Origin: an uncultured Actinomycetota bacterium
GTDB taxonomy: Bacteria; Actinomycetota; Actinomycetes; Streptosporangiales; Streptosporangiaceae
Assembly (NCBI GenBank): GCA_963725175.1
Contig: CAVRXH010000006.1
Location: forward strand, 5,939,580 to 6,003,579
DNA length: 64,000 bases
Direction: 5' to 3'
A program made the position numbers and the translations under genes. Under the pieces are notes generated by a model. That model was not told where the DNA came from. It did no database searches and saw only the letters and a program-made list of their open reading frames with translations. Of the stretch, positions 31,280 to 43,562 are shown piece by piece; the stretch's first letter is position 1, and each line of letters starts with the position of its first letter.

Positions 31280-32722
31280 TTACCGGGGCGCGGGGGTCTC
31301 CGGGGCGTCGGGGACGGCGTGCAGGCCGGGCGGCGCGGTGGCGGGCGGCTGGGCCGGGGGGTCCGCTGCTGGCTCGGGCGCCGTCTCGGGTCCGGCGGCC
31401 GGGGTGACGGCCGCAGCCTCGGTGACGGCCGGGTCGGCGGCGGGCAGCTCGGGGACGGGGACCGCGCCGCCGGCTGCGGTGTCCGCGGGCAGCGTCCCGG
31501 CGGCGCGGTTCGCGCCCGCCGTCGCGGACCTGAGCGTGTCCAGGATGGTCAGGCCCTGGCCGACCAGGCCGGTCATGACCTGGCCGACGCCCTCGGTGCC
31601 GTTCAGGATGGTCAGGTTCGAGGCAGCGATGCCCTGCGCCGCGGAACCGACCAGCGACGGCAGGCTGTCCACGATGGCGGCGGCCGCCAGCAGCTCCTGA
31701 TGCCCGCCGGCCAGCGACGCGGCCCGCAGGTTGTTGGCGTCGGCCTGGGCCATCGCCGTCGCCCGCTGAGCATAGGCCTCGGCGTCCGCGCGGATCCGGG
31801 CGGCCTGCGCTTCCGCCCCGGCCAGGGTCGTCTGCCGGAACGCCTCGCCCTCGGCGGTGAACTTGGCCCGGTCCCTGGCGGCCTCGGCCAGCGCGCGCTG
31901 CTTGTACGCCTCGGCGTCGGCCGGGCGGCGAACCTCGGCCTCCAGCCGCTGCGCGGCCAGGTCGGCGCGGCGCTGGGCGAGCATGGTCTGCTGCTCGATG
32001 ACCTCCTGCGAGGCGCGGGCCTCGGCCAGCGGCCCGGACTGCGCGGCCCTGGCCTTGGCCTCCTCGGTCTCGGCCTGGAACCCGGACACCTTGATGGCCA
32101 GGTCGCGCTCGTACAGCGCCTTCATCGCGGCGGCCTGCTGCTCCTGCTCGGCGGCCTCCTGGTCGGCGCGCGCCCGCGCGATGCGGGCCTGGCTGGCCAC
32201 CGAGGCGGCGTGCGGCGCTGACAGGTTGTTGATGTACCCGGACAGGTCCTCGATCTCCTGGATCTCCAGGGCGTCCACCACGATGCCGAGCTTCTCCATC
32301 TCGGCGTGGCTGCCCTCCTTGATCTCCTGCGCCACCCGGTCCCGCTCCCGGATGATCTGCTCCACCGTGAGCCCGCCGATGATGGACCGCAGGTGACCGG
32401 CGAACACCCGGCCGACCAGGATCTCCATCTTGTCCTGCTCCGACAGGAACCGGCGGGCGGCGTTGGCGATCGACGCCGAGTCGTCGCCGACCTTGAACGC
32501 GGCCACGGCCCGGACGTTCAGCCGGATGCCCTGGCTGGTGATGCAGTCCTCGACGATCTCCGCCTCGCGCAGGGCCAGGGACAGCACCCGGGCCTGGCGG
32601 ACGACGGGCACCACGAAGCTGCCGTGGCCGGTGATGATCCGGAACTGGGTGTCCTGCCGGCGTCGCTTCGACCCGGAGATCAGCAGCGCTTCATTGGGTG
32701 CCGGGACATGCCAGAAAAACAT
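31280..32722 (-). CDS. Flotillin / SPFH (band 7) domain protein
   Basis: ATG 32722 (MFFWHVPAPNEALLISG..). An SPFH domain is followed by a long Ala/Glu/Gln/Arg coiled-coil flotillin region and an Ala/Pro-rich tail. Confidence 0.85.
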   Translation of the reverse strand: MFFWHVPAPNEALLISGSKRRRQDTQFRIITGHGSFVVPVVRQARVLSLALREAEIVEDCITSQGIRLNVRAVAAFKVGDDSASIANAARRFLSEQDKMEILVGRVFAGHLRSIIGGLTVEQIIRERDRVAQEIKEGSHAEMEKLGIVVDALEIQEIEDLSGYINNLSAPHAASVASQARIARARADQEAAEQEQQAAAMKALYERDLAIKVSGFQAETEEAKARAAQSGPLAEARASQEVIEQQTMLAQRRADLAAQRLEAEVRRPADAEAYKQRALAEAARDRAKFTAEGEAFRQTTLAGAEAQAARIRADAEAYAQRATAMAQADANNLRAASLAGGHQELLAAAAIVDSLPSLVGSAAQGIAASNLTILNGTEGVGQVMTGLVGQGLTILDTLRSATAGANRAAGTLPADTAAGGAVPVPELPAADPAVTEAAAVTPAAGPETAPEPAADPPAQPPATAPPGLHAVPDAPETPAPR

Positions 32723-32745
32723 GATGGGCTCCAGGATTGGCCGTG

Positions 32746-33018
32746 CTAGGGAACCGGGGTGACGAAGACGGAGCGCGCGGACAGGCACTCCACCACCGCG
32801 ACGCGGCTGTGCCGCCGGATGGGCTCATCTGACCAGGCGGCGAACGCCTCGGTGCCGCCGCGGATGGGCAGCAGCACCTCGCCGGGACCCCCGGCCGGGA
32901 TGGAGACGGTTACCCGTCCGATGGCTCCGAGCAGGCTCTGCTCCGCGTCAGCCACGGCCCCCGACCAGCTTTCCGGCCATGTTCGCCTCGTCTTATCGCA
33001 CCGCGCCCGCCTTGCCAT
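32746..33018 (-). CDS. NfeD-like small OB-fold protein, upstream partner of flotillin
   Basis: ..LLGAIGRVTVSIPAGGPGEVLLPIRGGTEAFAAWSDEPIRRHSRVAVVECLSARSVFVTPV matches the NfeD C-terminal pattern. The real start may be GTG 32955. Confidence 0.65.
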   Translation of the reverse strand: MARRARCDKTRRTWPESWSGAVADAEQSLLGAIGRVTVSIPAGGPGEVLLPIRGGTEAFAAWSDEPIRRHSRVAVVECLSARSVFVTPVP

Positions 33019-33165
33019 TCGCGGCCTTCCCGATCATTATGCTCCCGCCGCGCGGGGCCGCTGACCGGCCGGCCTCGCGCCGGCCACCGCGCGCGGCGGC
33101 CAGGGCTAGAAGTCGACCCGCATCACGACGCGGCCTAGTGCTGGACCGGCTGGTGAGCGCCGGAG

Positions 33166-34212
33166 TTACGGGCGGGGTCCCTCGGTGGACAGCAGAACGA
33201 CGGTGGCCGACGGGCCCAGGCCGAGCCCGGCTAGCGGGAGCTCGCGGACGGCGGCCAGGGCGGCTGCCCCGCAGGGGCCGGCGGCGACCCCGTGCGCGGC
33301 GAGGTCGCCCGCCGCGATGGCCGCCTGCTCCTCGGAAACGGCGATCGCTCCCGACAGGCCGTTCCGCAGCGAAGGCCAGGCCAGGGCGGACGGCGTCGGG
33401 CAGTTCAGGCCCGCCATCCGGGTGCGGCCCGTGCTGACCGTGACCGGGCGGCCGGCCAGCAGGCTGCGGCGGACGCAGTCGGCGCTGTCCGGCTCGGCCG
33501 TGACGACGTGCGCGCGGCCCCGGTAGTGCGTGACGATCGCCTGGGCCAGCGCGCCGACCCCGGCCGGCACCACGACCAGGTCCGGGTCGGCGAGGTCGTC
33601 GATCTCGGCGGGCAGCGTGCTGTAGCCGTCCGCGATCCAGCCCGGCACCTGCGTGTACCCGTCCCAGGCGGTGTCCTGCACCAGCTCGGCGCCGGTGCCG
33701 GCGGCGCACTTGGCTGCCCGGCGCACGGCCTCGTCGTAGTCCCCGGCGACCCGGCGGATGACCGCGCCCTCGGCCGCGATGAGGTCGGCGGCCGCGTGGT
33801 CCACCGCGTCCGGCACGAAGATCTCCGACCGCGCGCCGAGCAGCGCGGCCATCCGGGCGACCGCCCGGCCGTGGTTGCCGTCCGTCGCGGCGGTGAACGC
33901 CAGGCCGGGAGGGACGACGGCGCGCAGGCTGGCCAGCGTGATCGCGTCACGGGCCAGGCCGGCGCGGCTGGCCAGCAGGCGGGCGATCGCCCAGGAGGCA
34001 CCGAGGATCTTGAACGCCGGGAGTCCGAGGCGGCACGATTCGTCCTTGGCCAGGACCCGGCCGACGCCGAGTTCGGCCGCGAGGGCGGGCAGGTCGGCGA
34101 GCGGGGTCGGCGCGTAACCGGGCAGCCGGGCGTGGAACGCGCGCACCTCCGGCCCCGGGCGCAGCGGCGGCGCGCCGCCGCGCAGGTCACGGGCCTGCGG
34201 ACGAAGGAACAT
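33166..34212 (-). CDS. PLP-dependent enzyme, diaminopropionate ammonia-lyase family
   Basis: ..LPGYAPTPLADLPALAAELGVGRVLAKDESCRLGLPAFKILGASWA.. and ..TATDGNHGRAVA... Confidence 0.75.
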   Translation of the reverse strand: MFLRPQARDLRGGAPPLRPGPEVRAFHARLPGYAPTPLADLPALAAELGVGRVLAKDESCRLGLPAFKILGASWAIARLLASRAGLARDAITLASLRAVVPPGLAFTAATDGNHGRAVARMAALLGARSEIFVPDAVDHAAADLIAAEGAVIRRVAGDYDEAVRRAAKCAAGTGAELVQDTAWDGYTQVPGWIADGYSTLPAEIDDLADPDLVVVPAGVGALAQAIVTHYRGRAHVVTAEPDSADCVRRSLLAGRPVTVSTGRTRMAGLNCPTPSALAWPSLRNGLSGAIAVSEEQAAIAAGDLAAHGVAAGPCGAAALAAVRELPLAGLGLGPSATVVLLSTEGPRP

Positions 34213-34271
34213 GGCCGCATCATCGCCGCAGAGCGATCATTCAGTCCAGTGCCGAGCCGGGCCGGCCGGGC

Positions 34272-35225
34272 TCAGAGCCCCAGCGCCTCGCTGATGTCCG
34301 CGCGCGCGAGCTGGGCCACGCACCAGGCGAAATGCCCGTCGCTGCCGTCGGAGGTGAACGCGTTGCTCGTCGCGACCGCGTAGACCGCCTGGAAGATCAG
34401 CAGCACCTCGGGCGGATAGCCAAGCTCCCTGGCGAACCGGGCCGTCAGGTCGCGGGTGATCTCCGCCGCCTGCGGCCCGTACATGTTCATGCACGCCGCC
34501 GTGATGGCCGCGTCGAGCCGGGCGTCGCCCGCCGTGGTGACGAACCCGAAATCGAGCACCGCGGTCGGCCGGGCCGCCTCGTCGACCAGGATGTTCGAGC
34601 CGAGCAGGTCGCCGTGAATCGGCACGTCCGGGCACCCGCCGAGGCCCGCCAGCCGGTCCAGCAGCGCCGCGTGGCGGCGGTCGAAGTCCGGTAGCCGGCT
34701 CCTGATGACCGGCCCGAACCTGGCGACGCGCCGGTCCAACAGCCCGCGCAGGGCCGCGGGGAAGCTGTCCGCGCCCGCCCACAGCGGCCGGTCCTCGTCC
34801 ACGACCGCCAGCTCGCGCATGCTGGCGGTGGCCGGAACCGTGGCGAGCGCGGCCAGGATGGCGGTCACGCAGGCGACCGCGGGCTCCCCTGTCTCCCGTT
34901 CCCCGGCCGCGAACCGGTGCTGCAGCTGCTCGCCGGGCAGCTTGCGCTCGTAGGTCACCGATCGGCCAGCTATCCGCTCGATGGAAAGGATCTCCGGCGT
35001 CTCGAACGGCAGCCCAGCGGCGGCCACGTCCGCGTAGAACGCCTGCATGCGCTCCAGGGTGGCGACGCCGCGCTCGCGCCAGACCTTCGCGACCAGCCCG
35101 CCGCCCAGGTCATAGATGGCGCCCTCCATCCCGGCCGCCAGCGGCGCGGGATCATGGCCCTGCCGCGCGAACCGGTCCAGCCACTGCTGGCTGTGCCGCT
35201 GCACGTTATCCGGCACGGCGGTCAC
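34272..35225 (-). CDS. Aminoglycoside/phosphotransferase-family kinase (APH fold)
   Basis: ..VAKVWR.. and catalytic IHGDLLGSNILVDEAARPTAVLDFGF. GTG 35225 follows a GGGAGGA SD. Confidence 0.8.
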   Translation of the reverse strand: MTAVPDNVQRHSQQWLDRFARQGHDPAPLAAGMEGAIYDLGGGLVAKVWRERGVATLERMQAFYADVAAAGLPFETPEILSIERIAGRSVTYERKLPGEQLQHRFAAGERETGEPAVACVTAILAALATVPATASMRELAVVDEDRPLWAGADSFPAALRGLLDRRVARFGPVIRSRLPDFDRRHAALLDRLAGLGGCPDVPIHGDLLGSNILVDEAARPTAVLDFGFVTTAGDARLDAAITAACMNMYGPQAAEITRDLTARFARELGYPPEVLLIFQAVYAVATSNAFTSDGSDGHFAWCVAQLARADISEALGL

Positions 35226-35231
35226 GTCCTC

Positions 35232-35255
35232 CCGGTGCTGGCGTGAATACTGGAG
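35232..35255. repeat. 24-nt conserved motif, copy 1 (CCGGTGCTGGCGTGAATACTGGAG)
   Basis: 23/24 identical to 41674-41697. It lies 7-30 nt upstream of the APH start, in the opposite orientation. Confidence 0.85.
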
Positions 35256-35384
35256 TTCGTGCGCCGCCTCGGTGATCCGGCCCGCCGGCGTTGATCGCGG
35301 TGCACGGCGGTCCGGCCTGGCGGTGGCCAGGTGAAACGAGCGCCCCTATCCGTGCTGCACAACGGAGCCGGGTGCCGTCACGGC

Positions 35385-35726
35385 CTAGCCGGCGGCATGG
35401 CCGATTCCGAAGGCATAGGCGAGGAAGATAACGCCGACCACGCAGGGTGCGAGGCTGATGGTCCACCCGATCGGCAGCCCGCCACCGAAGCTACCGCGCA
35501 TGCGCCCGGTCTGCGGGACCAGGCGGCAGACGATGTAGGCGGCCAATGCTGCCACCTCGATGACGCCGGACCAGGCGAGCAGCGGGCCGGCCCAGCCGCG
35601 GCTCAGCCTGATAGCCAGGATGAGCGCGAGTGGCTGGGCGATGATGCCGGCTGTTACCCCGGCCAGCCGTGCGGGGGAGACGCGGAGCACGGCCAGCGCG
35701 CTCCGCGAGCCGCTATCGCCGGCCAT
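35385..35726 (-). CDS. Small membrane protein (3-4 predicted TM segments)
   Basis: ATG 35726 overlaps the GNAT stop by 1 nt (TGATG). Sequence ..AGIIAQPLALILAIRL..VIEVAALAAYIVC..LAPCVVGVIFLAYAFG... Confidence 0.6.
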   Translation of the reverse strand: MAGDSGSRSALAVLRVSPARLAGVTAGIIAQPLALILAIRLSRGWAGPLLAWSGVIEVAALAAYIVCRLVPQTGRMRGSFGGGLPIGWTISLAPCVVGVIFLAYAFGIGHAAG

Positions 35727-36295
35727 CAGTGGCTGTCCTGCAACGCTTGCCAGTCTTCCCTGGTCAGGGCGTACTCCACCTCGCCCTGGTCCGCGCCGGG
35801 GATGTCGGGGGCATGGCCCGAGCTGTACGTCCGCGCGAACGTCAGCCCGGACTTCTCCATCACCCGGCGGGACGCCTGGTTGACCGCCATCGTGCGCGCG
35901 ATCACCCGGCGCAGGCCCTGCCGCGCGAAGCCGTGGTCGATGAGCGCCCGCGAGCCCTCCGTGCCGTAGCCCTTTCCCCATGCTGCCTTCCGCAGCCGGT
36001 AGCCCAGCTCGACTTCGCCGTCAGCGCTGTCCGGGCCCGGCCGGAAATGGAACCAGCCAAGGAACTCGCCGGTCGCCTTGTCCAGCGCGGCCCAGAAGCC
36101 CAGGCCGTCGAACCGCTCGTAGAAGCTGAGGAAAAACGGGATCACCCGGTCCCGCACCTCCTCGCGCGGCGTCGGCTGGCCGCCGGTGAGGAACCACATC
36201 ACGTCCGGGTCGGCGTTCAGCTCGACCAGCAGGTCGATGTCGGCCTCAGTGAACCGCCGCAGCACCAGCCGCTCAGTCTCCAGGAAGATGGTCAC
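35726..36295 (-). CDS. GNAT-family N-acetyltransferase (RimJ/RimL-like)
   Basis: MTIFLETERLVLRRFTEADIDLLVELNADPDVMWF.. and ..GYRLRKAAWGKGYGTEGSRALIDHGF... Confidence 0.85.
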   Translation of the reverse strand: MTIFLETERLVLRRFTEADIDLLVELNADPDVMWFLTGGQPTPREEVRDRVIPFFLSFYERFDGLGFWAALDKATGEFLGWFHFRPGPDSADGEVELGYRLRKAAWGKGYGTEGSRALIDHGFARQGLRRVIARTMAVNQASRRVMEKSGLTFARTYSSGHAPDIPGADQGEVEYALTREDWQALQDSH

Positions 36296-36353
36296 TGACC
36301 CATTATCGGCCGGTGCGGTCGCCGCGATTCCCCGGCGAGCGGGAGGTCGGCCG

Positions 36354-36764
36354 CTAAGGGAGATACAGGCAGAACGGGTGGCCGGCCGGGTCGATCATGA
36401 CCCGGACATTCTCCTGCGGCTGGTAGTCAGCCAGCACCGCGCCCGCCTCGGTGGCCCAGACGACTGCCGCGTCGAGGTCATCGGCGGCGATGTCCAGGTG
36501 CACGGTGGTGTGCTGCTTGCCCGCCTCGCTCGGCCACGTCGGCCGGATGTACTCCGCCTCGTACTCGAAGCTCAGCACCATGCCGGGCTGTCCCGCCGGC
36601 GGCCGCAGCTGCGCCCAGCCATCCTCCGGCGGGAAGCCGGGCCGCCCCGCTTCCTCAACGGCCACGGGCCAGCCGAGCAGCCGCGCGTAAAACGCGGCCA
36701 GCTCACGCGGCGCGGGCGCGCCGATCGTCACCGACGTCACGTCCAGCCGCGGTCGCCGCGTCAT
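36354..36764 (-). CDS. VOC/glyoxalase-like protein
   Basis: ..VTIGAPAPRELAAFYARLLGW.. and ..VHLDIAADDLDAAV..MIDPAGHPFCL... Confidence 0.75.
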   Translation of the reverse strand: MTRRPRLDVTSVTIGAPAPRELAAFYARLLGWPVAVEEAGRPGFPPEDGWAQLRPPAGQPGMVLSFEYEAEYIRPTWPSEAGKQHTTVHLDIAADDLDAAVVWATEAGAVLADYQPQENVRVMIDPAGHPFCLYLP

Positions 36765-36950
36765 CTCAGCGGACGCCCTGAAGATCGTGCGGAAACCTGG
36801 TCAGCATCGCGCAATCCCCTAGATGCGGCATCGGGGCGAACGTAGCACGGCCGGGGTCCAGGCAGATGAATGACTTCGCCGCGCGTGCCGTTGCCAGTCG
36901 AGGAGAATACTCAGTATGCTACTCGGCATGCTATCGAGAGTGGCCAGTTC

Positions 36951-37541
36951 ATGAGCGTGCGGCACGCGATGCTCGCGCTGCTGAGCGAGGGGCCTAAGTA
37001 CGGGCTGCGACTCCGCGAGGAGTTCGAGGAGCGCACGGGCGAGGTCTGGCCGCTGAACGTGGGCCAGGTGTACACCACGCTGCAGCGGCTGGAGCGCGAT
37101 GGCCTGGTCGAGTCCGACGGGACCGGCGAGGACGGCCCGCAGAAGGTCTTCCGGATCACCGCCGATGGCGAGCGGGAGCTGGCCTGGTGGCTGCGCACGC
37201 CGCCCGACCTGAGCTCGCCGCCGCGCGACGAGCTCGTGATGAAGGTGCTGATCGCCCTGCGGGTGCCTGGTGCCGATCCGCATGAGGTCATCCAGGCGCA
37301 CCGGCGCTACCTGATGCAGCTCATGCAGCAATGGACGCGGATCAAGGAAGACGAAGCCGGCGGCCTGGGCCTGGCGCTGGCGGTCGACGCCGAGCTGCTC
37401 CGGCTTGACTCGGTGATCAGGTGGCTGGACGTCGCAGATACCCGCATCAAGCGGGCTGGCGCCGGCGCCTTCGCACCCGAGCCCGAGCAAGGCCAAGCGC
37501 CGCTGCCACGGCACCGGCGGGAACTGAGGATGCCCAGATGA
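36951..37541 (+). CDS. PadR-family transcriptional regulator
   Basis: MSVRHAMLALLSEGPKYGLRLREEFEERTGEVWPLNVGQVYTTLQRLERDGLVE.. Confidence 0.85.
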   Translation: MSVRHAMLALLSEGPKYGLRLREEFEERTGEVWPLNVGQVYTTLQRLERDGLVESDGTGEDGPQKVFRITADGERELAWWLRTPPDLSSPPRDELVMKVLIALRVPGADPHEVIQAHRRYLMQLMQQWTRIKEDEAGGLGLALAVDAELLRLDSVIRWLDVADTRIKRAGAGAFAPEPEQGQAPLPRHRRELRMPR

Positions 37542-38263
37542 AGTCGCTAGAGCTGCACCAGGTGTCCAAGTCCTACGGGCAGGGCACCGCCGAGGTACAC
37601 GCCCTCCGCGGCGTCAGCCTGTCGGCCGACGAGGGCGCGATGGTCGCGGTCATGGGGCCGAGCGGGTCGGGCAAGAGCACGCTGCTCACCATCGCGGGGA
37701 CGCTGGAGGAGCCGACAAGCGGCGAGGTGCTGATCGCCGGGCAGGCCGTCGCGGGCATGTCCCGCAACGCCAGGGCGCGGCTGCGGCGGCGCGCCATCGG
37801 GTACGTGTTCCAGGACTTCAACCTGCTGCCCGGGCTGACCGCCGCCGAGAACGTGGCGCTGCCGCTCGAGCTGGACGGCATGCCCGCCCGCAGGGCAGGG
37901 GTCGCCGGCCGCGAGGCGCTGGAGCGTCTCGGCCTGGGCGAACGGGCCGCGCACTACCCCGACCAGCTCTCCGGCGGAGAACGGCAGCGGGTGGCGATCG
38001 CCCGCGCGATGGTGGGCGAGCGGAAGCTGCTGCTCGCCGACGAGCCCTCGGGCGCGCTGGACTCGGTCAACGGCGAGGCGGTGATGCGCCTGCTGCACAC
38101 CGCGTGCAAGGAAGGCGGGATGACCGCGGTGGTGGTGACCCACGACGCGCAGCTCGCCGCGTGGGCCGACCGGGTGATGTTCCTGCGGGACGGCCGGGTG
38201 ACCGACCAGACCGCCCCGGCACCGGGACCTGAGTCGCTGCTCGCACCGGGGGACGCGCGATGA
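37538..38263 (+). CDS. ABC transporter ATP-binding protein (MacB/LolD/FtsE-like)
   Basis: ATGA overlap with the padR stop. Motifs GPSGSGKSTLL, LSGGERQRVAIARA and LLLADEPSGALD. Confidence 0.88.
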   Translation: MKSLELHQVSKSYGQGTAEVHALRGVSLSADEGAMVAVMGPSGSGKSTLLTIAGTLEEPTSGEVLIAGQAVAGMSRNARARLRRRAIGYVFQDFNLLPGLTAAENVALPLELDGMPARRAGVAGREALERLGLGERAAHYPDQLSGGERQRVAIARAMVGERKLLLADEPSGALDSVNGEAVMRLLHTACKEGGMTAVVVTHDAQLAAWADRVMFLRDGRVTDQTAPAPGPESLLAPGDAR

Positions 38264-40800
38264 GCACGGGTCTGCGGGAACGGCCAGCCGCCGGGAGGGC
38301 GCCGAACGGGGGCGCTCCCGCCCGCCGCGCGGTCATCCGCTGGGGAGTGCGGCTGCTGCGCCGCGAGTGGCGGCAGCAGCTGCTGATCCTGGGGCTGATC
38401 ACGGTCGCGGTGGCGGCCGCGGTCGTCGCCTCGGCGGTCGCGACCGATACCCCGGCCCCGATAGCCGGGGTGCTCGGCACCGCGCAGGATGCCGCCACGC
38501 TCACCGGCACGCCCGCGAAGATCAGTGCCGGGATCAGCGACCTCGCAAGCCGCTACGGCAGGACCGACGTCATCGAGAACGAGGCCGTGCCGATCCCCGG
38601 CACCCGCCGCACGTTCGACCTGCGGGCGCAGAATCCGCGCGGGCCGTTCGGCCGCCCGATGCTGTCCCTGGCCAGCGGTCATTACCCGGCCACGGCGGAC
38701 CAGATCGCGGTGACCAGCGGCGTCGCCGCCGACTTCGGGCTCAGCACCGGCCGCGGCTGGACCATCGCCGGCAAGACCTGGAAAGTGACCGGCATCGTCC
38801 AGAACCCGCAGAACCTGCTGGACGAGTTTGCCCTGGTCATGCCCGGCCAGGTCGCCGCGCCTGACAACGTCACGGTCCTGTTCAGCGCTCCGGGCCAGAC
38901 CGCGCAGGGCATCCAGGCGGCCACCGGCATCGACGTCACCACCGCCCAGACGGTGGCGAACGCCAACGTGATCAACCCCCAGACGATCTCGATCTCGGCC
39001 GCCGTCCTGGGCATGCTGCTGATCGCGCTCGTCGGAATCGGCGGCTTCACGGTCCTGGCGCAGCGCAGGCTGAGGGCGATCGGCATGCTCGCCGCCCAGG
39101 GCGCGACGCCGCGGCACATCGGGCTCGTCGTCAGGGCCAACGGCGCCGCGACCGGCGTCGCGGGCGCGGTGGCCGGCTTCGTGCTCGGCTTCCTCGCCTG
39201 GCTCGCTTACCGCCCGCAGGCCGAGCAGAGCGCACATCACCTGATGGGCGTGTTCCAGCTGCCGTGGACCGTCATCGGCATCTCCATGGCCCTCGCGGTC
39301 ATCGCCACCTACTTCGCCGCCTCCCGGCCGGCGAGGGCCATCGCCGGAGCCTCCATCGTGGCGGCGCTGGCCGGCCGCCCGCCCGCGACGAAGAAGACCG
39401 GCCACCTCGCGGTCCCCGTCGGCCTTGGCTTCCTCGTCGTGGCCTTCCTCCTGCTCGGCGCCGCCGGCGCCATCGGCACCGGGGGCGGCGACCAGAGCGG
39501 CCATATCCGCGAGCTCGTCCTCGGCTTCCTGGTGCTCGCGGTCGCCATCGTGCTGCTCGCCCCGGCCTGCCTGGTGGTCCTCGCCGCCGCCGGACGGCGG
39601 GCACCCATATCGGTGCGGCTCGCCCTGCGGGACCTCGCGCGCTACCGGGCACGATCGGGCCCGGCGCTGGCGGCGATCAGCCTCAGCACCCTGATCGCGG
39701 TCATCATCTGCGTGGCCAGCGCCGCCCGGCTGGACAACGTCCTCGACTATGCCGGCCCGAGCCTGACCTCCAGCCAGCTCATCGTCTACGCCCCGGCCAG
39801 CGGGATGGGCAAGCAACCGGGCGGCCCGCCAGGGCCGAGCACCGCCCCGCCGGTCAGCATGGCGAAAGCGCGGCAGGTCGCCGGCCAGATCGCCGCCGGC
39901 CTCGGCACCACTCGCATGATCACGCTGGAGTCGACCAGCGCGTGCGTGCGGCACGCCGGGGCCGGGCGGCAATGGGACGGTGCGGTCTACGTGGCCACCC
40001 CGCAGCTGCTCAGCGCGTTCGGCATCAGGCAGTCGCAGGTCAGTCCCGACGCCGACCTGCTCACGATGCGCCCAGGCCTGTCCACCATGAGCCTGATGCA
40101 GCTCGCCACCGGCCCGTCGTGCGGCGGGAACCCCGGCAGCGGCAACCCCTTCGCCTGTCCGCCGGGCTCGTGTGTGAGCAGCCCGCCGATCCAGGAGTTC
40201 AGCCAGCTCCCGTCCGGCGTCTCCGCGCCGAACACGGTGATCACGCAGCACGCGATCACCGCGCTCCGCCTGCAGAGGTCGGTCACCACGGACGGCTGGC
40301 TCATCACCGCGCCGCGCGACCTCACCGCCGCGCAGATCGCCAGGGCGCAGCAGCTCGCGGCCGGAGCGTCCGGGATGAGCGTCGAGACCCGCAACAGCAT
40401 CCCGTCGCTGGCCCAGATCATCGACGCGGCCACGATCTTCGGCATCGTTCTCGCGCTCGGCATCCTCGGCATGAGCGTGGGCCTGGTCCGCAGCGAGGCG
40501 GCCGGCGACCTGCGGACGCTCACCGCCGCGGGCGCGGCCCCCGCCACCCGCCGCACCATCACCGCGGCCACCGCCGGGGCGCTCGCCTTCACCGGGGCCG
40601 TGATCGGCATCGCCGGCGGCTACCTGGCGGCGATCGGCTTCTTCCGGAGCAACCAGCTAGACGGCCTGTCCTCGCTATCCAGCATCCCGGTGACCAACCT
40701 GCTGGTGATCCTCGTCGGCATGCCGCTGGCCGCCGTGGTCATCGGCTGGCTGACCGCGGGCCGCGAGCCGGCCAGCATGTCCCGCCAGCCCCTCGAATAA
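38260..40800 (+). CDS. ABC transporter permease with duplicated FtsX domains
   Basis: 846 aa. ATGA overlap with the ATPase gene. Two FtsX-like 4-TM blocks are separated by large extracytoplasmic regions. Confidence 0.8.
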   Translation: MSTGLRERPAAGRAPNGGAPARRAVIRWGVRLLRREWRQQLLILGLITVAVAAAVVASAVATDTPAPIAGVLGTAQDAATLTGTPAKISAGISDLASRYGRTDVIENEAVPIPGTRRTFDLRAQNPRGPFGRPMLSLASGHYPATADQIAVTSGVAADFGLSTGRGWTIAGKTWKVTGIVQNPQNLLDEFALVMPGQVAAPDNVTVLFSAPGQTAQGIQAATGIDVTTAQTVANANVINPQTISISAAVLGMLLIALVGIGGFTVLAQRRLRAIGMLAAQGATPRHIGLVVRANGAATGVAGAVAGFVLGFLAWLAYRPQAEQSAHHLMGVFQLPWTVIGISMALAVIATYFAASRPARAIAGASIVAALAGRPPATKKTGHLAVPVGLGFLVVAFLLLGAAGAIGTGGGDQSGHIRELVLGFLVLAVAIVLLAPACLVVLAAAGRRAPISVRLALRDLARYRARSGPALAAISLSTLIAVIICVASAARLDNVLDYAGPSLTSSQLIVYAPASGMGKQPGGPPGPSTAPPVSMAKARQVAGQIAAGLGTTRMITLESTSACVRHAGAGRQWDGAVYVATPQLLSAFGIRQSQVSPDADLLTMRPGLSTMSLMQLATGPSCGGNPGSGNPFACPPGSCVSSPPIQEFSQLPSGVSAPNTVITQHAITALRLQRSVTTDGWLITAPRDLTAAQIARAQQLAAGASGMSVETRNSIPSLAQIIDAATIFGIVLALGILGMSVGLVRSEAAGDLRTLTAAGAAPATRRTITAATAGALAFTGAVIGIAGGYLAAIGFFRSNQLDGLSSLSSIPVTNLLVILVGMPLAAVVIGWLTAGREPASMSRQPLE

Positions 40801-40830
40801 CCGAGGCCGGACTGGCCGATCGTGCCAGCC

Positions 40831-41550
40831 TTAGCCGCCGAGCTGGCTCGAGCCGGGCATCTTGACGGTACGGGCCACGAGGAAGACCGGCTTGCGGTCG
40901 GCGTCGTGTGCCTGGTCCCAGTCCGGCGCCGGCAGCGGCTCAGCCATCTGGTCCAGCCACAGGTCGTGCCGCCGGAGCGTGTTGAGGTAGGTCGACAGCA
41001 TCCGGTGACTGGCGCCCACCTGGCGGCGCAGCGTGGACAGGGCGTCCTGCGCCGTCCAGTGCCCTTCGTCGTAGTAGCTTCCCGCCGTTGGCCAGGAGCC
41101 CGAGACGTCCTTCCCGCCGGCGAAGCACGGGTGCAGGATCGAGAAGACGAACCGCCCGCGTGGCCGCAGCGCGGCGCTGACAGCCGCGATCGCGCCGTCG
41201 AGGTCGTCAATGTCGGAGAGCCCGAAACTGCAGGTCGCCACGTCGAACGGGGCCTTGCTCGGGAGCCCGGATGTCACGTCGGCGTGGATATAGCGGATGC
41301 CGCGCGGCTCGTCCCGCTCAGCTTCCCCGGCTTTCCTGAGCAGGTTCCCGGAGATATCAATCCCCACGACTTCCGCGCCGCGTCTGGACAGCTCGCGGGT
41401 GATCCGGCCGTGCCCGCAGGCGACATCCAGTACCCGCAGGCCATCGACCGGCCCCACGAGGTCGAGAAGGGCAACGGACACCGAATCGTCCGTGACGTCG
41501 AACCCGCTGATGTAGAAGTCCGCGACCGCGTCATACCTGGCCAGCACCAT
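40831..41550 (-). CDS. Class I SAM-dependent methyltransferase
   Basis: Motif I VLDVACGHGRITRELSRRGAEVVGIDIS. Confidence 0.8.
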   Translation of the reverse strand: MVLARYDAVADFYISGFDVTDDSVSVALLDLVGPVDGLRVLDVACGHGRITRELSRRGAEVVGIDISGNLLRKAGEAERDEPRGIRYIHADVTSGLPSKAPFDVATCSFGLSDIDDLDGAIAAVSAALRPRGRFVFSILHPCFAGGKDVSGSWPTAGSYYDEGHWTAQDALSTLRRQVGASHRMLSTYLNTLRRHDLWLDQMAEPLPAPDWDQAHDADRKPVFLVARTVKMPGSSQLGG

Positions 41551-41630
41551 GCCCCGACTCTAGGTAGCCGGTCCTCCTGGCCGGCGCGGATTCGCAGTGA
41601 GCGGATTCTTGCTGGCCGGCTGGGAGGTCG

Positions 41631-42626
41631 GTGCTGAGGGTGCCCCAGGTGCCCTGCTGGGTGACGGCCCCGACCGGTGCTGTCGTGAATACTGGAGCGG
41701 TGCCTGGCGGTTCCCCTGCGGTTGACGGCGAAGTCATCGCGGCCGGGGGAGTGAAGCAGTTCGTGCGCCGTCTGGGCGACCCGGCCCTGCCGACGCTGAT
41801 CGTGGTGCACGGCGGTCCGACCTGGGACCACTCTTACCTGCTGCCCGCCGTCGCGGAGCTTGCCGACCTTGCTCACGTCGTGCTGTTCGACCTGCGCGGC
41901 TGCGGCCGGAGTTCCCGTACGCCGCCGGCGGGTGACCTTCCGGTGGCCGCCCTGCAGCCCGACCTGGTGGCCGACGATGTCGCCGCGCTAGCCCGGCGCT
42001 ACGGCGCGGACCCCGCGGCCCGCGTGGATGTGCTCGGCTTCTCCTACGGCGGGCGGGTCGCCATGCGCGTAGTGGATCAGTATCCCGGCCTCGTCCGCCG
42101 GCTGATCCTGGCCTCCACCACGGCCTACCAGGACTATCAGGCCGACCTGGAGGCGTCCGCCGACTATCGGGCCCGCGCCGCGCTGAGCACGCCCGTCGCG
42201 TGGGACGACCCGGCGCTGACCGGCCCGAAGGCGGAGGACGGCGCGTTCAGCCGGGCGATGGCCTACGCCAGCGCGCCCTACGACATCTGGCACCTGGAAC
42301 GGATGCGCGACTGGCACCGGGTTCTGGACCAGGTCCGGTTCAGCAGTGACTGGAACGCCCCCTACGCGGATGGCCAGCTCCGGCCCGGAGCACCCGACGA
42401 CGCCGAACGCATCCTGCGTGACTGGGCCAGGCCCGTGCTCATCGTGCACGGCCGCCGGGAAATGACCTTCCCGGTCAGCGTCGCCCGGCGGCTGCACACC
42501 GCGCTGCCCGCCAGCACCCTCGCCGAGATCCCCGGCGCCGCGCACATGGCGCACTTCGACAACCCCGGCGCCTGGCTGGCCGCCATCCGCGCCTTCCTCA
42601 GCCTCCCCGAGCCGCTCGGGCGCTGA
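41631..42626 (+). CDS. Alpha/beta hydrolase (proline-iminopeptidase-like)
   Basis: ..LIVVHGGPTWDHSYL.., nucleophile elbow GFSYGG, and ..GAAHMAHFDNP... The start is uncertain: in-frame GTGs lie at 41685 and 41700. Confidence 0.8.
   Translation: MLRVPQVPCWVTAPTGAVVNTGAVPGGSPAVDGEVIAAGGVKQFVRRLGDPALPTLIVVHGGPTWDHSYLLPAVAELADLAHVVLFDLRGCGRSSRTPPAGDLPVAALQPDLVADDVAALARRYGADPAARVDVLGFSYGGRVAMRVVDQYPGLVRRLILASTTAYQDYQADLEASADYRARAALSTPVAWDDPALTGPKAEDGAFSRAMAYASAPYDIWHLERMRDWHRVLDQVRFSSDWNAPYADGQLRPGAPDDAERILRDWARPVLIVHGRREMTFPVSVARRLHTALPASTLAEIPGAAHMAHFDNPGAWLAAIRAFLSLPEPLGR
41674..41697. repeat. 24-nt conserved motif, copy 2 (CCGGTGCTGTCGTGAATACTGGAG)
   Basis: 23/24 identical to 35232-35255. It lies in the divergent methyltransferase/hydrolase region. 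Confidence 0.85.
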
Positions 42627-42656
42627 GGCTATGCGCGCGTGCCACGAGCTCGCCGT

Positions 42657-43562
42657 TCAGCCCCGGTACGCCACCGTCACGTAGTCCGACGACTTCGCCC
42701 CATAGCTGGACCCGGTCACGTACACCCTGGTACCGGCCGGGCTGACCGCCACCGTGTAGGCGAAGTCGTGGCTGTTGCCCGGCCCCTGGTAGCGGGCCGC
42801 CCACAGTCGCGCCCCGGTCGCCGCGCTGTACGCCACCGTCGCGTAGTCAGACGACTTCGCCGCCTGGCTGCGCCCGGTGACGAACACCCTGGTCCCGCCC
42901 CGGCTGACCGCGATGGCGTTAGGGCTGTCGTAGCCGTACTTGCCGGCGCCGTTGTAGCGGGCCGCCCACAGCCGAGCGCCGGTCGCGGCGCGGTACGCCA
43001 CCGTGGCGTAGTCAGTCGACGTTGACCCGTCGCTGGACCCGGTGACATACACCCTGTTCCCGCCGGGGCTGACCGCCACGGCGGAGGCGTAGTCGTTGCC
43101 GTTGGCCGGGCCGTTGTACCTGGCCACCCATAGCCGCGCGCCGGTCGCGGCGTTATAGGCCACCGTCGCGAAGTCAGCCGACGCTGGCCCCTGCCTGGAT
43201 CCGGTGACGTAGACCGTGGCCCCGTCCGGGCTCACCGCCAGGGCGGCAGCGGTGCCGTCGCGGTAGCGCGCCGTCCACAGCCGCGCGCCGGTCGCGGCGC
43301 TGTACGCCACCGTCGCGTAACCAGTCGGCGTCGCCTGGCTGGACCCGGTCACGTATACCCGGAGCCCGCCCGGGCCGACCGCCAAGGCGGTGGCGGTCCC
43401 GTTGCGGTGGCGCGCCAGCCATAGCCGCGCGCCGCCCGCAGGAACCGGCCGGCCGGCCGCTCCCTCGGCGGCACCCGATGCGGCCAGAGCCGATGCCGCC
43501 AGCGCCATACCTAACGCCGCCGCGCACAATCCGCGCGCCACGTTCCCGCCCATCGGAGTCAT
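42657..43562 (-). CDS. Secreted six-repeat beta-propeller protein (SBBP-type repeats)
   Basis: A signal peptide is followed by six ~43-aa repeats of the form YATVAY.AATGARLW.ARY.G......A.AVAVSP.G.RVYVTGSS. Confidence 0.75.
   Translation of the reverse strand: MTPMGGNVARGLCAAALGMALAASALAASGAAEGAAGRPVPAGGARLWLARHRNGTATALAVGPGGLRVYVTGSSQATPTGYATVAYSAATGARLWTARYRDGTAAALAVSPDGATVYVTGSRQGPASADFATVAYNAATGARLWVARYNGPANGNDYASAVAVSPGGNRVYVTGSSDGSTSTDYATVAYRAATGARLWAARYNGAGKYGYDSPNAIAVSRGGTRVFVTGRSQAAKSSDYATVAYSAATGARLWAARYQGPGNSHDFAYTVAVSPAGTRVYVTGSSYGAKSSDYVTVAYRG

What the first reader, a model, noticed from the sequence alone, without database searches (positions are those of the whole stretch)
35232..35255. 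24-nt motif shared (23/24) by two unrelated promoter regions: APH gene and methyltransferase/hydrolase divergon
CCGGTGCTG[G/T]CGTGAATACTGGAG occurs at 35232-35255 and at 41674-41697. This is far too long and AT-containing for chance in this genome.

Read on the minus strand, it lies 7-30 nt upstream of the APH start (just before its GGGAGGA SD) and about 125-150 nt upstream of the SAM-methyltransferase start.

Read on the plus strand, its AATACT could be a -10 box placed 6-8 nt before a GTG. In copy 2 that GTG (41700) is in frame with the hydrolase, which would give a leaderless mRNA. In copy 1 the GTG (35259) opens only an 11-codon ORF antisense to the membrane/GNAT genes.

Either way, two small-molecule-modifying enzyme genes (a kinase and a methyltransferase or hydrolase) seem to share a cis element. 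That suggests a common regulon, for example an antibiotic-responsive one.
Basis: seen in the sequence. Interest (0 to 1): 0.5.

Follow-up and report, generated by a model that had tools for sequence, protein, structure and literature searches.

The report
Decayed duplicate of a hydrolase promoter
The 24-base "shared motif" is real, but it is the best-preserved piece of a broken, duplicated copy of one gene's promoter and first codons, so it is a leftover of genome rearrangement and not a regulatory signal linking two genes.

Summary
The 24-nt match (35232-35255 and 41674-41697, 23/24) is confirmed and far beyond chance. It is only the first block of a longer gapped repeat: 35232-35320 (89 nt) matches 41674-41825 (152 nt), apart from a 62-nt deletion and a 1-nt deletion. 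Copy 2 is the core promoter plus the first ~42 codons of an intact alpha/beta-hydrolase gene. Homologue N-termini place the start at GTG 41700. AATACT begins 12 nt upstream of it, where close orthologues carry CATAAT, which is the geometry of a leaderless-mRNA promoter. Copy 1 encodes the same peptide pieces (VNTG / FVRRLGDPA / PALIAVHGGPAW) in three different frames and then stops, so it is a dead gene fragment. It lies in a 501-nt segment between GNAT and APH that four related strains lack. In three of those strains the motif is the ~40-nt divergent intergenic region between a glyoxalase-GNAT-APH-PLP operon and the hydrolase. The locus is rearranged differently in every strain examined. The similarity is therefore explained by common descent. 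Nothing supports an operator or a shared regulon: no dyad symmetry, no third copy in the window, and homology that continues into coding sequence. This is an ordinary finding of low interest.

The parts
41674..41697 (+). Motif copy 2: positions -26 to -3 of the hydrolase start, meaning the core promoter region. Its left end coincides with the right boundary of the strain-specific 4.9-kb block.
41688..41693 (+). AATACT, the putative -10 hexamer. Its first base is 12 nt before GTG 41700, and close orthologues have CATAAT at the same place.
   Evidence: PMC3160421; PMC4895711
41700..42626 (+). Intact alpha/beta-hydrolase gene (Abhydrolase_1/6, HGGPTW motif). The start is inferred at GTG 41700 (308 aa), so the mRNA is probably leaderless.
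41698..41759 (+). 62-nt stretch of the hydrolase 5' end (start codon and the first ~20 codons) that is deleted in the relic. The deletion junction carries AG microhomology.
41758..41825 (+). Hydrolase codons for KQFVRRLGDPALPTLIVVHGGPTW, the part that is homologous to the relic's coding block.
35232..35255 (+). Motif copy 1: the promoter part of the relic.
35232..35320 (+). The whole hydrolase relic: promoter plus truncated 5' coding sequence. It reads GAGVNTG / EFVRRLGDPA / PALIAVHGGPAW in three different frames, and similarity ends at 35320.
35259..35294 (+). 11-codon ORF plus stop that follows the relic's -10 box (GTG 7 nt after AATACT). It is created by the 62-nt deletion and is probably meaningless.
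35218..35718 (.). 501-nt segment present in the window but absent from the closest relative L054, where the GNAT stop and the APH start are 1 nt apart. It contains the relic, a 64-nt spacer and the orphan membrane-protein gene.
35385..35726 (-). Orphan 113-aa membrane-protein gene. Its ATG overlaps the GNAT stop (TGATG) and GC3 is 0.88-0.93. It has only three weak homologues among 1.8 billion representatives.
34272..35216 (-). APH-family phosphotransferase gene. The likely start is GTG 35216 (314 aa), with SD GGGAGGA at 35227-35233 abutting the relic.
35726..36764 (-). GNAT acetyltransferase (35726-36295) and glyoxalase-fold gene (36354-36764). In relatives these head the operon glyoxalase-GNAT-APH-PLP, which is divergent from the hydrolase.
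36769..41673 (.). 4.9-kb block (PadR, ABC ATPase, FtsX permease, SAM methyltransferase). In this strain it separates the glyoxalase gene from the hydrolase promoter. It is absent in L055, L059 and L060 and replaced by unrelated DNA in L054.

Best explanation
The 24-nt motif is the promoter-proximal part of a small divergent intergenic region that, in the ancestor of this strain group, separated a glyoxalase-GNAT-APH-PLP operon (minus strand) from an alpha/beta-hydrolase gene (plus strand).

Copy 2 (41674-41697) still does that job for the hydrolase. Its AATACT is a -10 box placed so that transcription starts at or next to GTG 41700, giving a leaderless mRNA.

Copy 1 (35232-35255) is the first block of an 89-nt relic (35232-35320) of a duplicated hydrolase promoter plus its first ~42 codons. 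The relic has lost 62 nt (including the start codon) and a further 1 nt, is out of frame, and is truncated after HGGPAW. It sits with an orphan membrane-protein gene in a 501-nt segment between GNAT and APH. The two copies are alike because they descend from one sequence, not because a regulator selects for the motif.

Shown: the extended gapped homology, the frame disruption, the absence of the relic from the same site in relatives, and the ancestral intergenic arrangement. Inferred: the promoter and leaderless function of copy 2, and the lack of function of copy 1. Unresolved: whether the relic was inserted in this lineage at a microhomology with the native APH upstream sequence (CCTCCCGG--CTGGCG), or is ancestral and was deleted in the relatives.
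For: 1. Extended homology: three collinear blocks at offsets 6442, 6504 and 6505 (D16 and D12), with blastn E = 6e-17 for the coding block.
2. Coding content: the relic translates to GAGVNTG, EFVRRLGDPA and PALIAVHGGPAW in three frames, against the hydrolase's TGAVVNTGAV...KQFVRRLGDPALPTLIVVHGGPTW. tblastn with the hydrolase finds only the gene itself and the relic in the window.
3. Start and promoter: about 60 homologues start at M/V-P/S-E/G, aligned to GTG 41700. CATAAT lies 6-7 nt before the GTG in L002, L013, L021 and L043. Over-extended gene calls in many homologues read H-N-R-x-(V/M), i.e. CAY AAY. The geometry matches the published leaderless signal.
4. Relatives: L055, L059 and L060 have glyoxalase CAT-CTCA-TCCTCC directly followed by GGGTGCTG(T)TCGTGAATACTGGAGCC-GTG and the hydrolase 5' end. 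L054, L055, L059 and L060 have GNAT adjacent to APH with no relic.
5. Age: the relic, the window hydrolase and the L055 hydrolase are about equidistant (88%, 86% and 85% identity in the coding block).
6. Real sequence: independent Logan contigs are 100% identical across the relic and copy 2.
Against: - No transcription data exist, so the -10/leaderless assignment rests on geometry and comparative conservation.
- AATACT lacks the first T of TANNNT, there is no recognisable -35, and the consensus promoter scan finds nothing in either region.
- The motif is 22-23/24 identical in all three pairwise comparisons (copy 1, copy 2, L055) while the adjacent coding block is 85-88%. That leaves room for some constraint on the motif, including in the relic, although the difference is not significant (p = 0.44).
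- Only a 64-kb window of a 7.3-Mb genome could be searched, so additional copies elsewhere cannot be excluded.
Confidence: 0.8

Rival explanations
1. Shared operator. The 24-mer is a binding site for a transcription factor that co-regulates APH and the methyltransferase/hydrolase divergon as one regulon.
For: Two copies at 23/24 identity, both in intergenic DNA next to small-molecule-modifying enzyme genes. The motif block is nominally better conserved than the adjoining block.
Against: - Homology continues for 67 more nt into hydrolase coding sequence with frame-breaking indels, so descent explains the identity.
- There is no dyad or direct-repeat symmetry, no third copy in the window with up to 3 mismatches, and no hit in the metagenome scan.
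- The extra conservation is not significant.
- Proximity to the methyltransferase is a strain-specific consequence of the 4.9-kb block.
- Relatives express APH from GNAT-adjacent positions without the full motif.
Confidence: 0.05
2. Functional relic. The duplicated module (SD, motif and hydrolase 5' end) still works. Either it is a plus-strand orphan promoter firing from about 35258, antisense to the membrane-protein and GNAT genes. Or, on the minus strand, it is a copy of the operon's original upstream region that now gives APH-PLP its own SD, 5' UTR or internal promoter.
For: - The -10 hexamer, the 14 nt upstream of it and a GTG 7 nt downstream are intact in the relic.
- The arrangement start codon / SD TCCTCC / motif is the same in front of APH in the window as in front of the glyoxalase gene in L055, L059 and L060.
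- In L059 and L060 the hydrolase body is deleted but the motif plus about 95 nt next to the glyoxalase gene persist.
Against: - There is no convincing minus-strand -10/-35 in the shared region, and promoter scans are empty.
- L054 couples APH translationally to GNAT with no such module, and the L055 clade has the SD without the rest, so the module is dispensable for APH.
- There is no terminator or structured RNA.
- The 11-codon ORF is a deletion by-product.
Confidence: 0.12
3. Recombination or attachment-site repeat. The two copies are attL/attR-like direct repeats bounding an integrated 6.4-kb element (35320-41674), or the ends of a mobile element.
For: Direct repeats in the same orientation, 6.4 kb apart. 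The interval differs between strains.
Against: - There is no integrase, transposase or recombinase in the interval.
- GNAT and glyoxalase inside the interval are syntenic backbone genes in all relatives.
- There are no terminal inverted repeats or target duplications at the block ends, and GC content is uniform.
- The repeat copies are 88% identical with indels, not a sharp identical core.
Confidence: 0.02
4. Assembly artefact or chance match.
For: None beyond the general possibility in MAG-like assemblies.
Against: 0 of 100 shuffles give even one match. Independent Logan contigs of ERR12035940 reproduce both copies and both block junctions at 100% identity. The copies differ by substitutions and indels, unlike a collapsed or chimeric repeat.
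Confidence: 0.01

Closest known systems
Actinobacterial sigma-A type -10 promoters of leaderless mRNAs (TANNNT about 12 bp before the start codon; Zheng et al. 2011, PMC3160421; Jeong et al. 2016, PMC4895711)
   Same: For copy 2, an A2/T6 hexamer starts 12 nt before the inferred GTG start, with no usable SD spacing (GGAG ends 2 nt before the GTG). The same geometry, with CATAAT, occurs in close orthologues.
   Different: The hexamer is AATACT and lacks the first T. No -35 is recognisable and no TSS has been mapped. GTG is the less preferred start codon for leaderless mRNAs in S. coelicolor (AUG 76%).
Gene remnants or pseudogene fragments left by segmental duplication, deletion and illegitimate recombination in bacterial genomes
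   Same: For copy 1, there is extended homology to an intact gene in the same genome, frame-breaking indels, truncation, absence from the orthologous site in relatives, and microhomology at the junctions (AG at the 62-nt deletion; CCTCCCGG..CTGGCG at the APH side).
   Different: The fragment retains the promoter rather than only coding sequence, and it sits inside an operon in antisense orientation, so residual promoter activity is conceivable.
Transcription-factor operators shared across a regulon (for example TetR, PadR or MerR boxes)
   Same: A short conserved sequence occurs in two intergenic regions near enzyme genes.
   Different: There is no symmetry, the flanks are homologous rather than unrelated, only two copies are seen, and one copy is embedded in a dead gene fragment.

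Membership tests
Leaderless-mRNA -10 promoter (copy 2) | TANNNT-like hexamer whose first base lies about 12 nt upstream of the start codon | tested here: met
   AATACT at 41688-41693 and GTG at 41700. A2 and T6 are present but T1 is absent, so this is a partial consensus match. Reference geometry comes from PMC3160421.
Leaderless-mRNA -10 promoter (copy 2) | The start codon assignment is correct, so the motif is upstream of the coding sequence and not inside it | tested here: met
   The N-termini of about 60 homologues align to VPG, which is GTG 41700. Typical lengths are 294-305 aa, against 331 aa for the longest ORF.
Leaderless-mRNA -10 promoter (copy 2) | Geometry conserved in orthologues | tested here: met
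   CATAAT lies 6-7 nt before the GTG in L002, L013, L021 and L043. The motif itself is retained in L055, L059 and L060. Other, more distant orthologues use an SD instead.
Leaderless-mRNA -10 promoter (copy 2) | Transcription start at or within a few nt of the start codon | not testable with these tools
   Needs dRNA-seq or 5'-RACE.
Gene remnant from duplication (copy 1) | Homology to an intact gene extends beyond the short motif into coding sequence | tested here: met
   35254-35320 matches 41758-41825 at 87-88%, E = 6e-17.
Gene remnant from duplication (copy 1) | Reading frame destroyed or truncated | tested here: met
   A 62-nt deletion, a 1-nt deletion, and similarity ending at 35320. The peptide pieces lie in three frames. 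No further hydrolase similarity exists in 35321-35800.
Gene remnant from duplication (copy 1) | Not part of the conserved gene order in relatives | tested here: met
   L054, L055, L059 and L060 have GNAT next to APH without the relic.
Regulon operator / TF-binding motif | Similarity confined to the site, with non-homologous flanks | tested here: not met
   The flanks are homologous on the 3' side. The 5' boundary coincides with rearrangement breakpoints in both copies.
Regulon operator / TF-binding motif | Internal dyad or direct-repeat symmetry | tested here: not met
   By inspection of the 24-mer against its reverse complement, the best register gives about 6/12 for CGTGAATACTGG. No inverted repeat was reported there.
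Regulon operator / TF-binding motif | Recurrence upstream of further genes | tested here: inconclusive
   There are only 2 copies in the 64-kb window with up to 3 mismatches, and 0 exact hits in the metagenome collection. The rest of the 7.3-Mb genome could not be searched.
Regulon operator / TF-binding motif | Bound by a regulator, with co-regulated targets | not testable with these tools
   Needs EMSA, ChIP or pull-down, and expression data.
Mobile element / att-site repeat | Recombinase gene, terminal repeats, target-site duplication, multiple copies | tested here: not met
   No recombinase domain in 33-44 kb. No repeats at the block ends and uniform GC. Backbone genes lie inside the interval.

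The most novel reading that the evidence does not exclude
The relic is not inert. Its intact -10 box still fires, producing a leaderless 11-codon transcript that runs antisense into the orphan membrane-protein and GNAT genes. Alternatively the duplicated divergent-promoter module gives APH-PLP an internal promoter. Either way, a piece of a dead gene would have been co-opted as a regulatory element and would respond to the same signals as the live hydrolase promoter.
Probability: 0.1. Interest if true: 0.3.

Novelty: new member of a known kind. Interest (0 to 1): 0.12.

Why it matters
The main value is as a correction. A long, exact-looking "motif" shared by two intergenic regions should be extended with a gapped alignment and checked against nearby coding sequence before a regulon is inferred. 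Here that check turns a candidate operator into a gene relic. The analysis also gives some locally useful annotation: the hydrolase start at GTG 41700 (probably leaderless), the APH start at GTG 35216, and a real orphan 113-aa membrane-protein gene. It documents a small hypervariable locus in a clade of soil Streptosporangiaceae-like actinomycetes, where one hydrolase gene is intact, frameshifted, 5'-truncated or nearly erased in different strains. None of this is surprising to a specialist.

Tried and rejected
1. Consensus sigma-70 promoter and terminator scans of both regions found nothing. This is uninformative for high-GC promoters without a -35.
2. An exact scan of the metagenome collection for GGTGCTGKCGTGAATACTGGAG gave 0 hits. 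The collection evidently lacks even the L055 contig, so this is weak negative evidence only.
3. The synteny search around 52 hydrolase loci from genome representatives found no conserved neighbours. The useful relatives came instead from APH homologues.
4. More distant APH homologues (L056 and L057, 71-73% identity) have unrelated contexts.
5. An exact-protein look-up of the window's GNAT found nothing on record.
6. The idea that 35321-35726 is further degraded hydrolase was rejected, because there is no DNA or protein similarity. It is a separate small gene.
7. The Rfam scan and RNA folding of the intercistronic region on both strands gave nothing significant: z about -0.8, and only a sub-threshold SAM-SAH hit inside the FtsX gene.
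8. The mobile-element or att-site reading was rejected.
9. A test for extra constraint on the motif relative to the dead coding block was not significant.
10. The direction of the event (insertion in the window lineage, or ancestral with independent deletions) could not be resolved. The L059/L060 junction CTGGCG|CCATCAG is exactly what a simple 476-nt deletion from the window arrangement would leave. The relic is also as diverged as the clades are. Both points lean towards an ancestral relic, but a microhomology-mediated insertion fits equally well by parsimony.

Full report
**Observation.** With up to three mismatches allowed they are the only matches in the window, and none occurred in 100 dinucleotide-preserving shuffles. 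The match is real and not due to chance.

**The repeat is longer than 24 nt.** Repeat finding and pairwise alignment show two more collinear blocks. 35254-35283 matches 41758-41787 (87%) and 35281-35320 matches 41786-41825 (88%) (D16 and D12). blastn gives E = 6e-17 for this block. Copy 1 (35232-35320, 89 nt) is therefore copy 2 (41674-41825, 152 nt) minus 62 nt (41698-41759, with an AG microhomology at the junction) and minus one T (41788). Similarity stops at 35320/41825. The "24-nt motif" is just the first ungapped block of this alignment.

**What copy 2 is.** It lies at the 5' end of an alpha/beta-hydrolase gene (Abhydrolase_1/6).
- The longest ORF starts at 41631. However, about 60 homologues (mostly 294-305 aa) begin at M/V-P/S-E/G, which aligns with VPG and so with GTG 41700.
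- The motif then occupies -26 to -3, and AATACT (41688-41693) starts 12 nt and ends 6 nt before the start codon.
- In the closest orthologue loci from genome representatives (L002, L013, L021, L043), CATAAT sits at the same distance from the GTG.
- Many over-extended homologue calls read H-N-R-x-(V/M) just before the start, i.e. CAY-AAY.
- This is the published signature of leaderless genes in high-GC bacteria: a TANNNT-type signal starting about 12 bp upstream of the initiation codon (PMC3160421). Roughly a fifth of Streptomyces coelicolor mRNAs are leaderless (PMC4895711).
- The GGAG at 41694-41697 is only 2 nt from the GTG, which is too close to serve as an SD (my own knowledge of SD spacing).

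No TSS data exist, and the consensus scan, which requires a -35, finds nothing.

**What copy 1 is.** Translated in three frames, it yields GAGVNTG, EFVRRLGDPA and PALIAVHGGPAW. The live gene reads TGAVVNTGAV...KQFVRRLGDPALPTLIVVHGGPTW. The 62-nt and 1-nt deletions both shift the frame, the hydrolase start codon is gone, and nothing beyond 35320 resembles the hydrolase at the DNA or protein level. It is a dead fragment comprising the promoter plus about 42 codons. The deletion happens to bring the GTG of the FVRR codons to 7 nt after AATACT, which creates the 11-codon ORF at 35259-35294.

**Context from relatives.** APH homologues led to four related contigs: L054 (93-98% nt identity to the window), and L055, L059 and L060 (about 80-92%). 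All four share the backbone glyoxalase-GNAT-APH-PLP.
- In L055, L059 and L060 the glyoxalase start is followed directly by the motif and the hydrolase 5' end. In window orientation this reads CAT-CTCA-TCCTCC-GGGTGCTG(T)TCGTGAATACTGGAGCC-GTG. The motif is therefore essentially the whole ~40-nt divergent intergenic region between that operon and the hydrolase.
- In the window, a 4.9-kb block (36769-41673: PadR, ABC ATPase, FtsX permease, SAM methyltransferase) lies between the glyoxalase gene and the motif. Its right boundary is the left end of motif copy 2. This is why the methyltransferase appears to share the element.
- The block has no repeat ends or compositional signature.
- In L054 the same interval, plus two-thirds of the hydrolase, is replaced by 3.2 kb of unrelated genes.

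**The relic's site.** None of the four relatives has the relic.
- In L054 the GNAT TGA and the APH GTG are 1 nt apart. Relative to L054 the window carries an extra 501 nt (35218-35718).
- That segment holds the relic, a 64-nt spacer and a 113-aa membrane-protein gene (35726 to 35388, minus strand). The gene's ATG overlaps the GNAT stop (TGATG) and its GC3 is 0.88-0.93.
- The protein is an orphan. It is the only hit to itself in the indexed search and has three weak homologues in the exhaustive search.
- The L055 clade has CACGGCGGTCACGGCCTCCCGG--CTGGCG(A/C)CATCAGG between APH and GNAT. That is the SD plus the left 12 nt of the motif (with a 2-nt gap), fused to the GNAT stop.

Two histories fit. 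In the first, a microhomology-mediated insertion or template switch occurred between this native APH-upstream sequence and the hydrolase promoter. The G at the single mismatch is the APH-side state, which would make copy 1 a hybrid junction. In the second, the relic is ancestral and was removed by independent deletions. The L059/L060 junction CTGGCG|CCATCAG is exactly what deleting window 35244-35719 would leave. The relic, the window hydrolase and the L055 hydrolase are about equidistant (88%, 86%, 85%), which mildly favours an old relic. I could not resolve this.

**Tests of the regulatory reading.**
- The motif has no dyad or repeat symmetry (inspection).
- There is no third copy in the window and no hit in the metagenome scan (weak evidence).
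- The motif is not significantly better conserved than the adjoining dead coding block (1/24 against 9/68 differences, p = 0.44).
- There is no known RNA family and no unusual structure on either strand, and no terminator.
- APH homologues and the genome's own gene call are 314 aa. APH therefore starts at GTG 35216, with its SD GGGAGGA 10 nt upstream, abutting the relic.
- In relatives APH is expressed from positions lacking the motif's -10 half, so APH does not need the motif.

**Artefact check.** Logan contigs from ERR12035940 are 100% identical to the window over 32446-36065 (the relic), 36038-36989 (the left junction of the 4.9-kb block) and 41120-43449 (copy 2).

**Verdict.** The feature is an ordinary promoter-bearing gene remnant in a strain-variable locus. 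A residual possibility (about 10%) is that the relic's intact -10 still fires antisense to the membrane-protein and GNAT genes, or serves APH on the other strand. Only TSS mapping or reporter fusions can decide that. Interest is low.

Noticed in passing
window 41700-42626; L054 4268-4579; L055 144-600; L059 4502-4639; L060 4580-4717: The same hydrolase gene is in a different state in every related strain. It is intact in the window. It is frameshifted (17-nt tandem duplication plus a 1-nt deletion) and truncated in L055. Only the 3' 250 nt remain in L054. It is reduced to 39 nt plus about 95 nt in L059 and L060. The interval between the aromatic-lyase gene and the glyoxalase gene is a small hypervariable region.
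   Followed up: partly
L041, L042, L043, L045, L046, L050, L051: Isolated N- or C-terminal fragments of this hydrolase family occur inside long contigs of other soil Actinomycetota MAGs. L043 keeps the CATAAT promoter and residues 11-90, while the same MAG also holds a full copy (L021). Fragmentation of this gene seems recurrent.
   Followed up: no
window 35385-35726 (-): An orphan 113-aa predicted membrane protein, translationally coupled to GNAT (TGATG overlap). It is absent from all four related strains and has only three weak homologues (P0242-P0244, 44-49% identity) among 1.8 billion representatives.
   Followed up: partly
window 42657-43562 (-): A 301-aa PQQ_2-like repeat protein built from about five repeats of roughly 54 aa (about 162 nt; D1-D3). 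In L059 and L060 it has collapsed to about one repeat unit.
   Followed up: no
L059 3795-4038; L060 3873-4116: A partial second copy of the glyoxalase gene (82% identity to window 36476-36719) lies upstream of the intact one. This is another duplication relic in the same locus.
   Followed up: no
window 35216-35225 and 41631-41700: The longest-ORF starts are probably wrong. APH starts at GTG 35216 (314 aa), not 35225. The hydrolase starts at GTG 41700 (308 aa), not at 41631 or at the 41649 start used in the public gene call (P0001, 325 aa).
   Followed up: yes
window 36763-36775: In this strain the glyoxalase gene has lost the GGAGGA SD that precedes it in L055, L059 and L060. The 4.9-kb block begins 4 nt upstream of its ATG, so its translation signal here is unclear.
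   Followed up: no
window 40607-40651 (+): A sub-threshold SAM/SAH riboswitch hit (20.6 bits against a gathering score of 40, E = 0.63) lies inside the FtsX permease gene, near the SAM-methyltransferase gene. It is most likely chance.
   Followed up: no
window 37421-37541: The PadR ORF (36870-37541) and the ABC ATPase ORF (37421-38263) overlap by about 120 nt as longest ORFs. The ABC start is probably further downstream.
   Followed up: no
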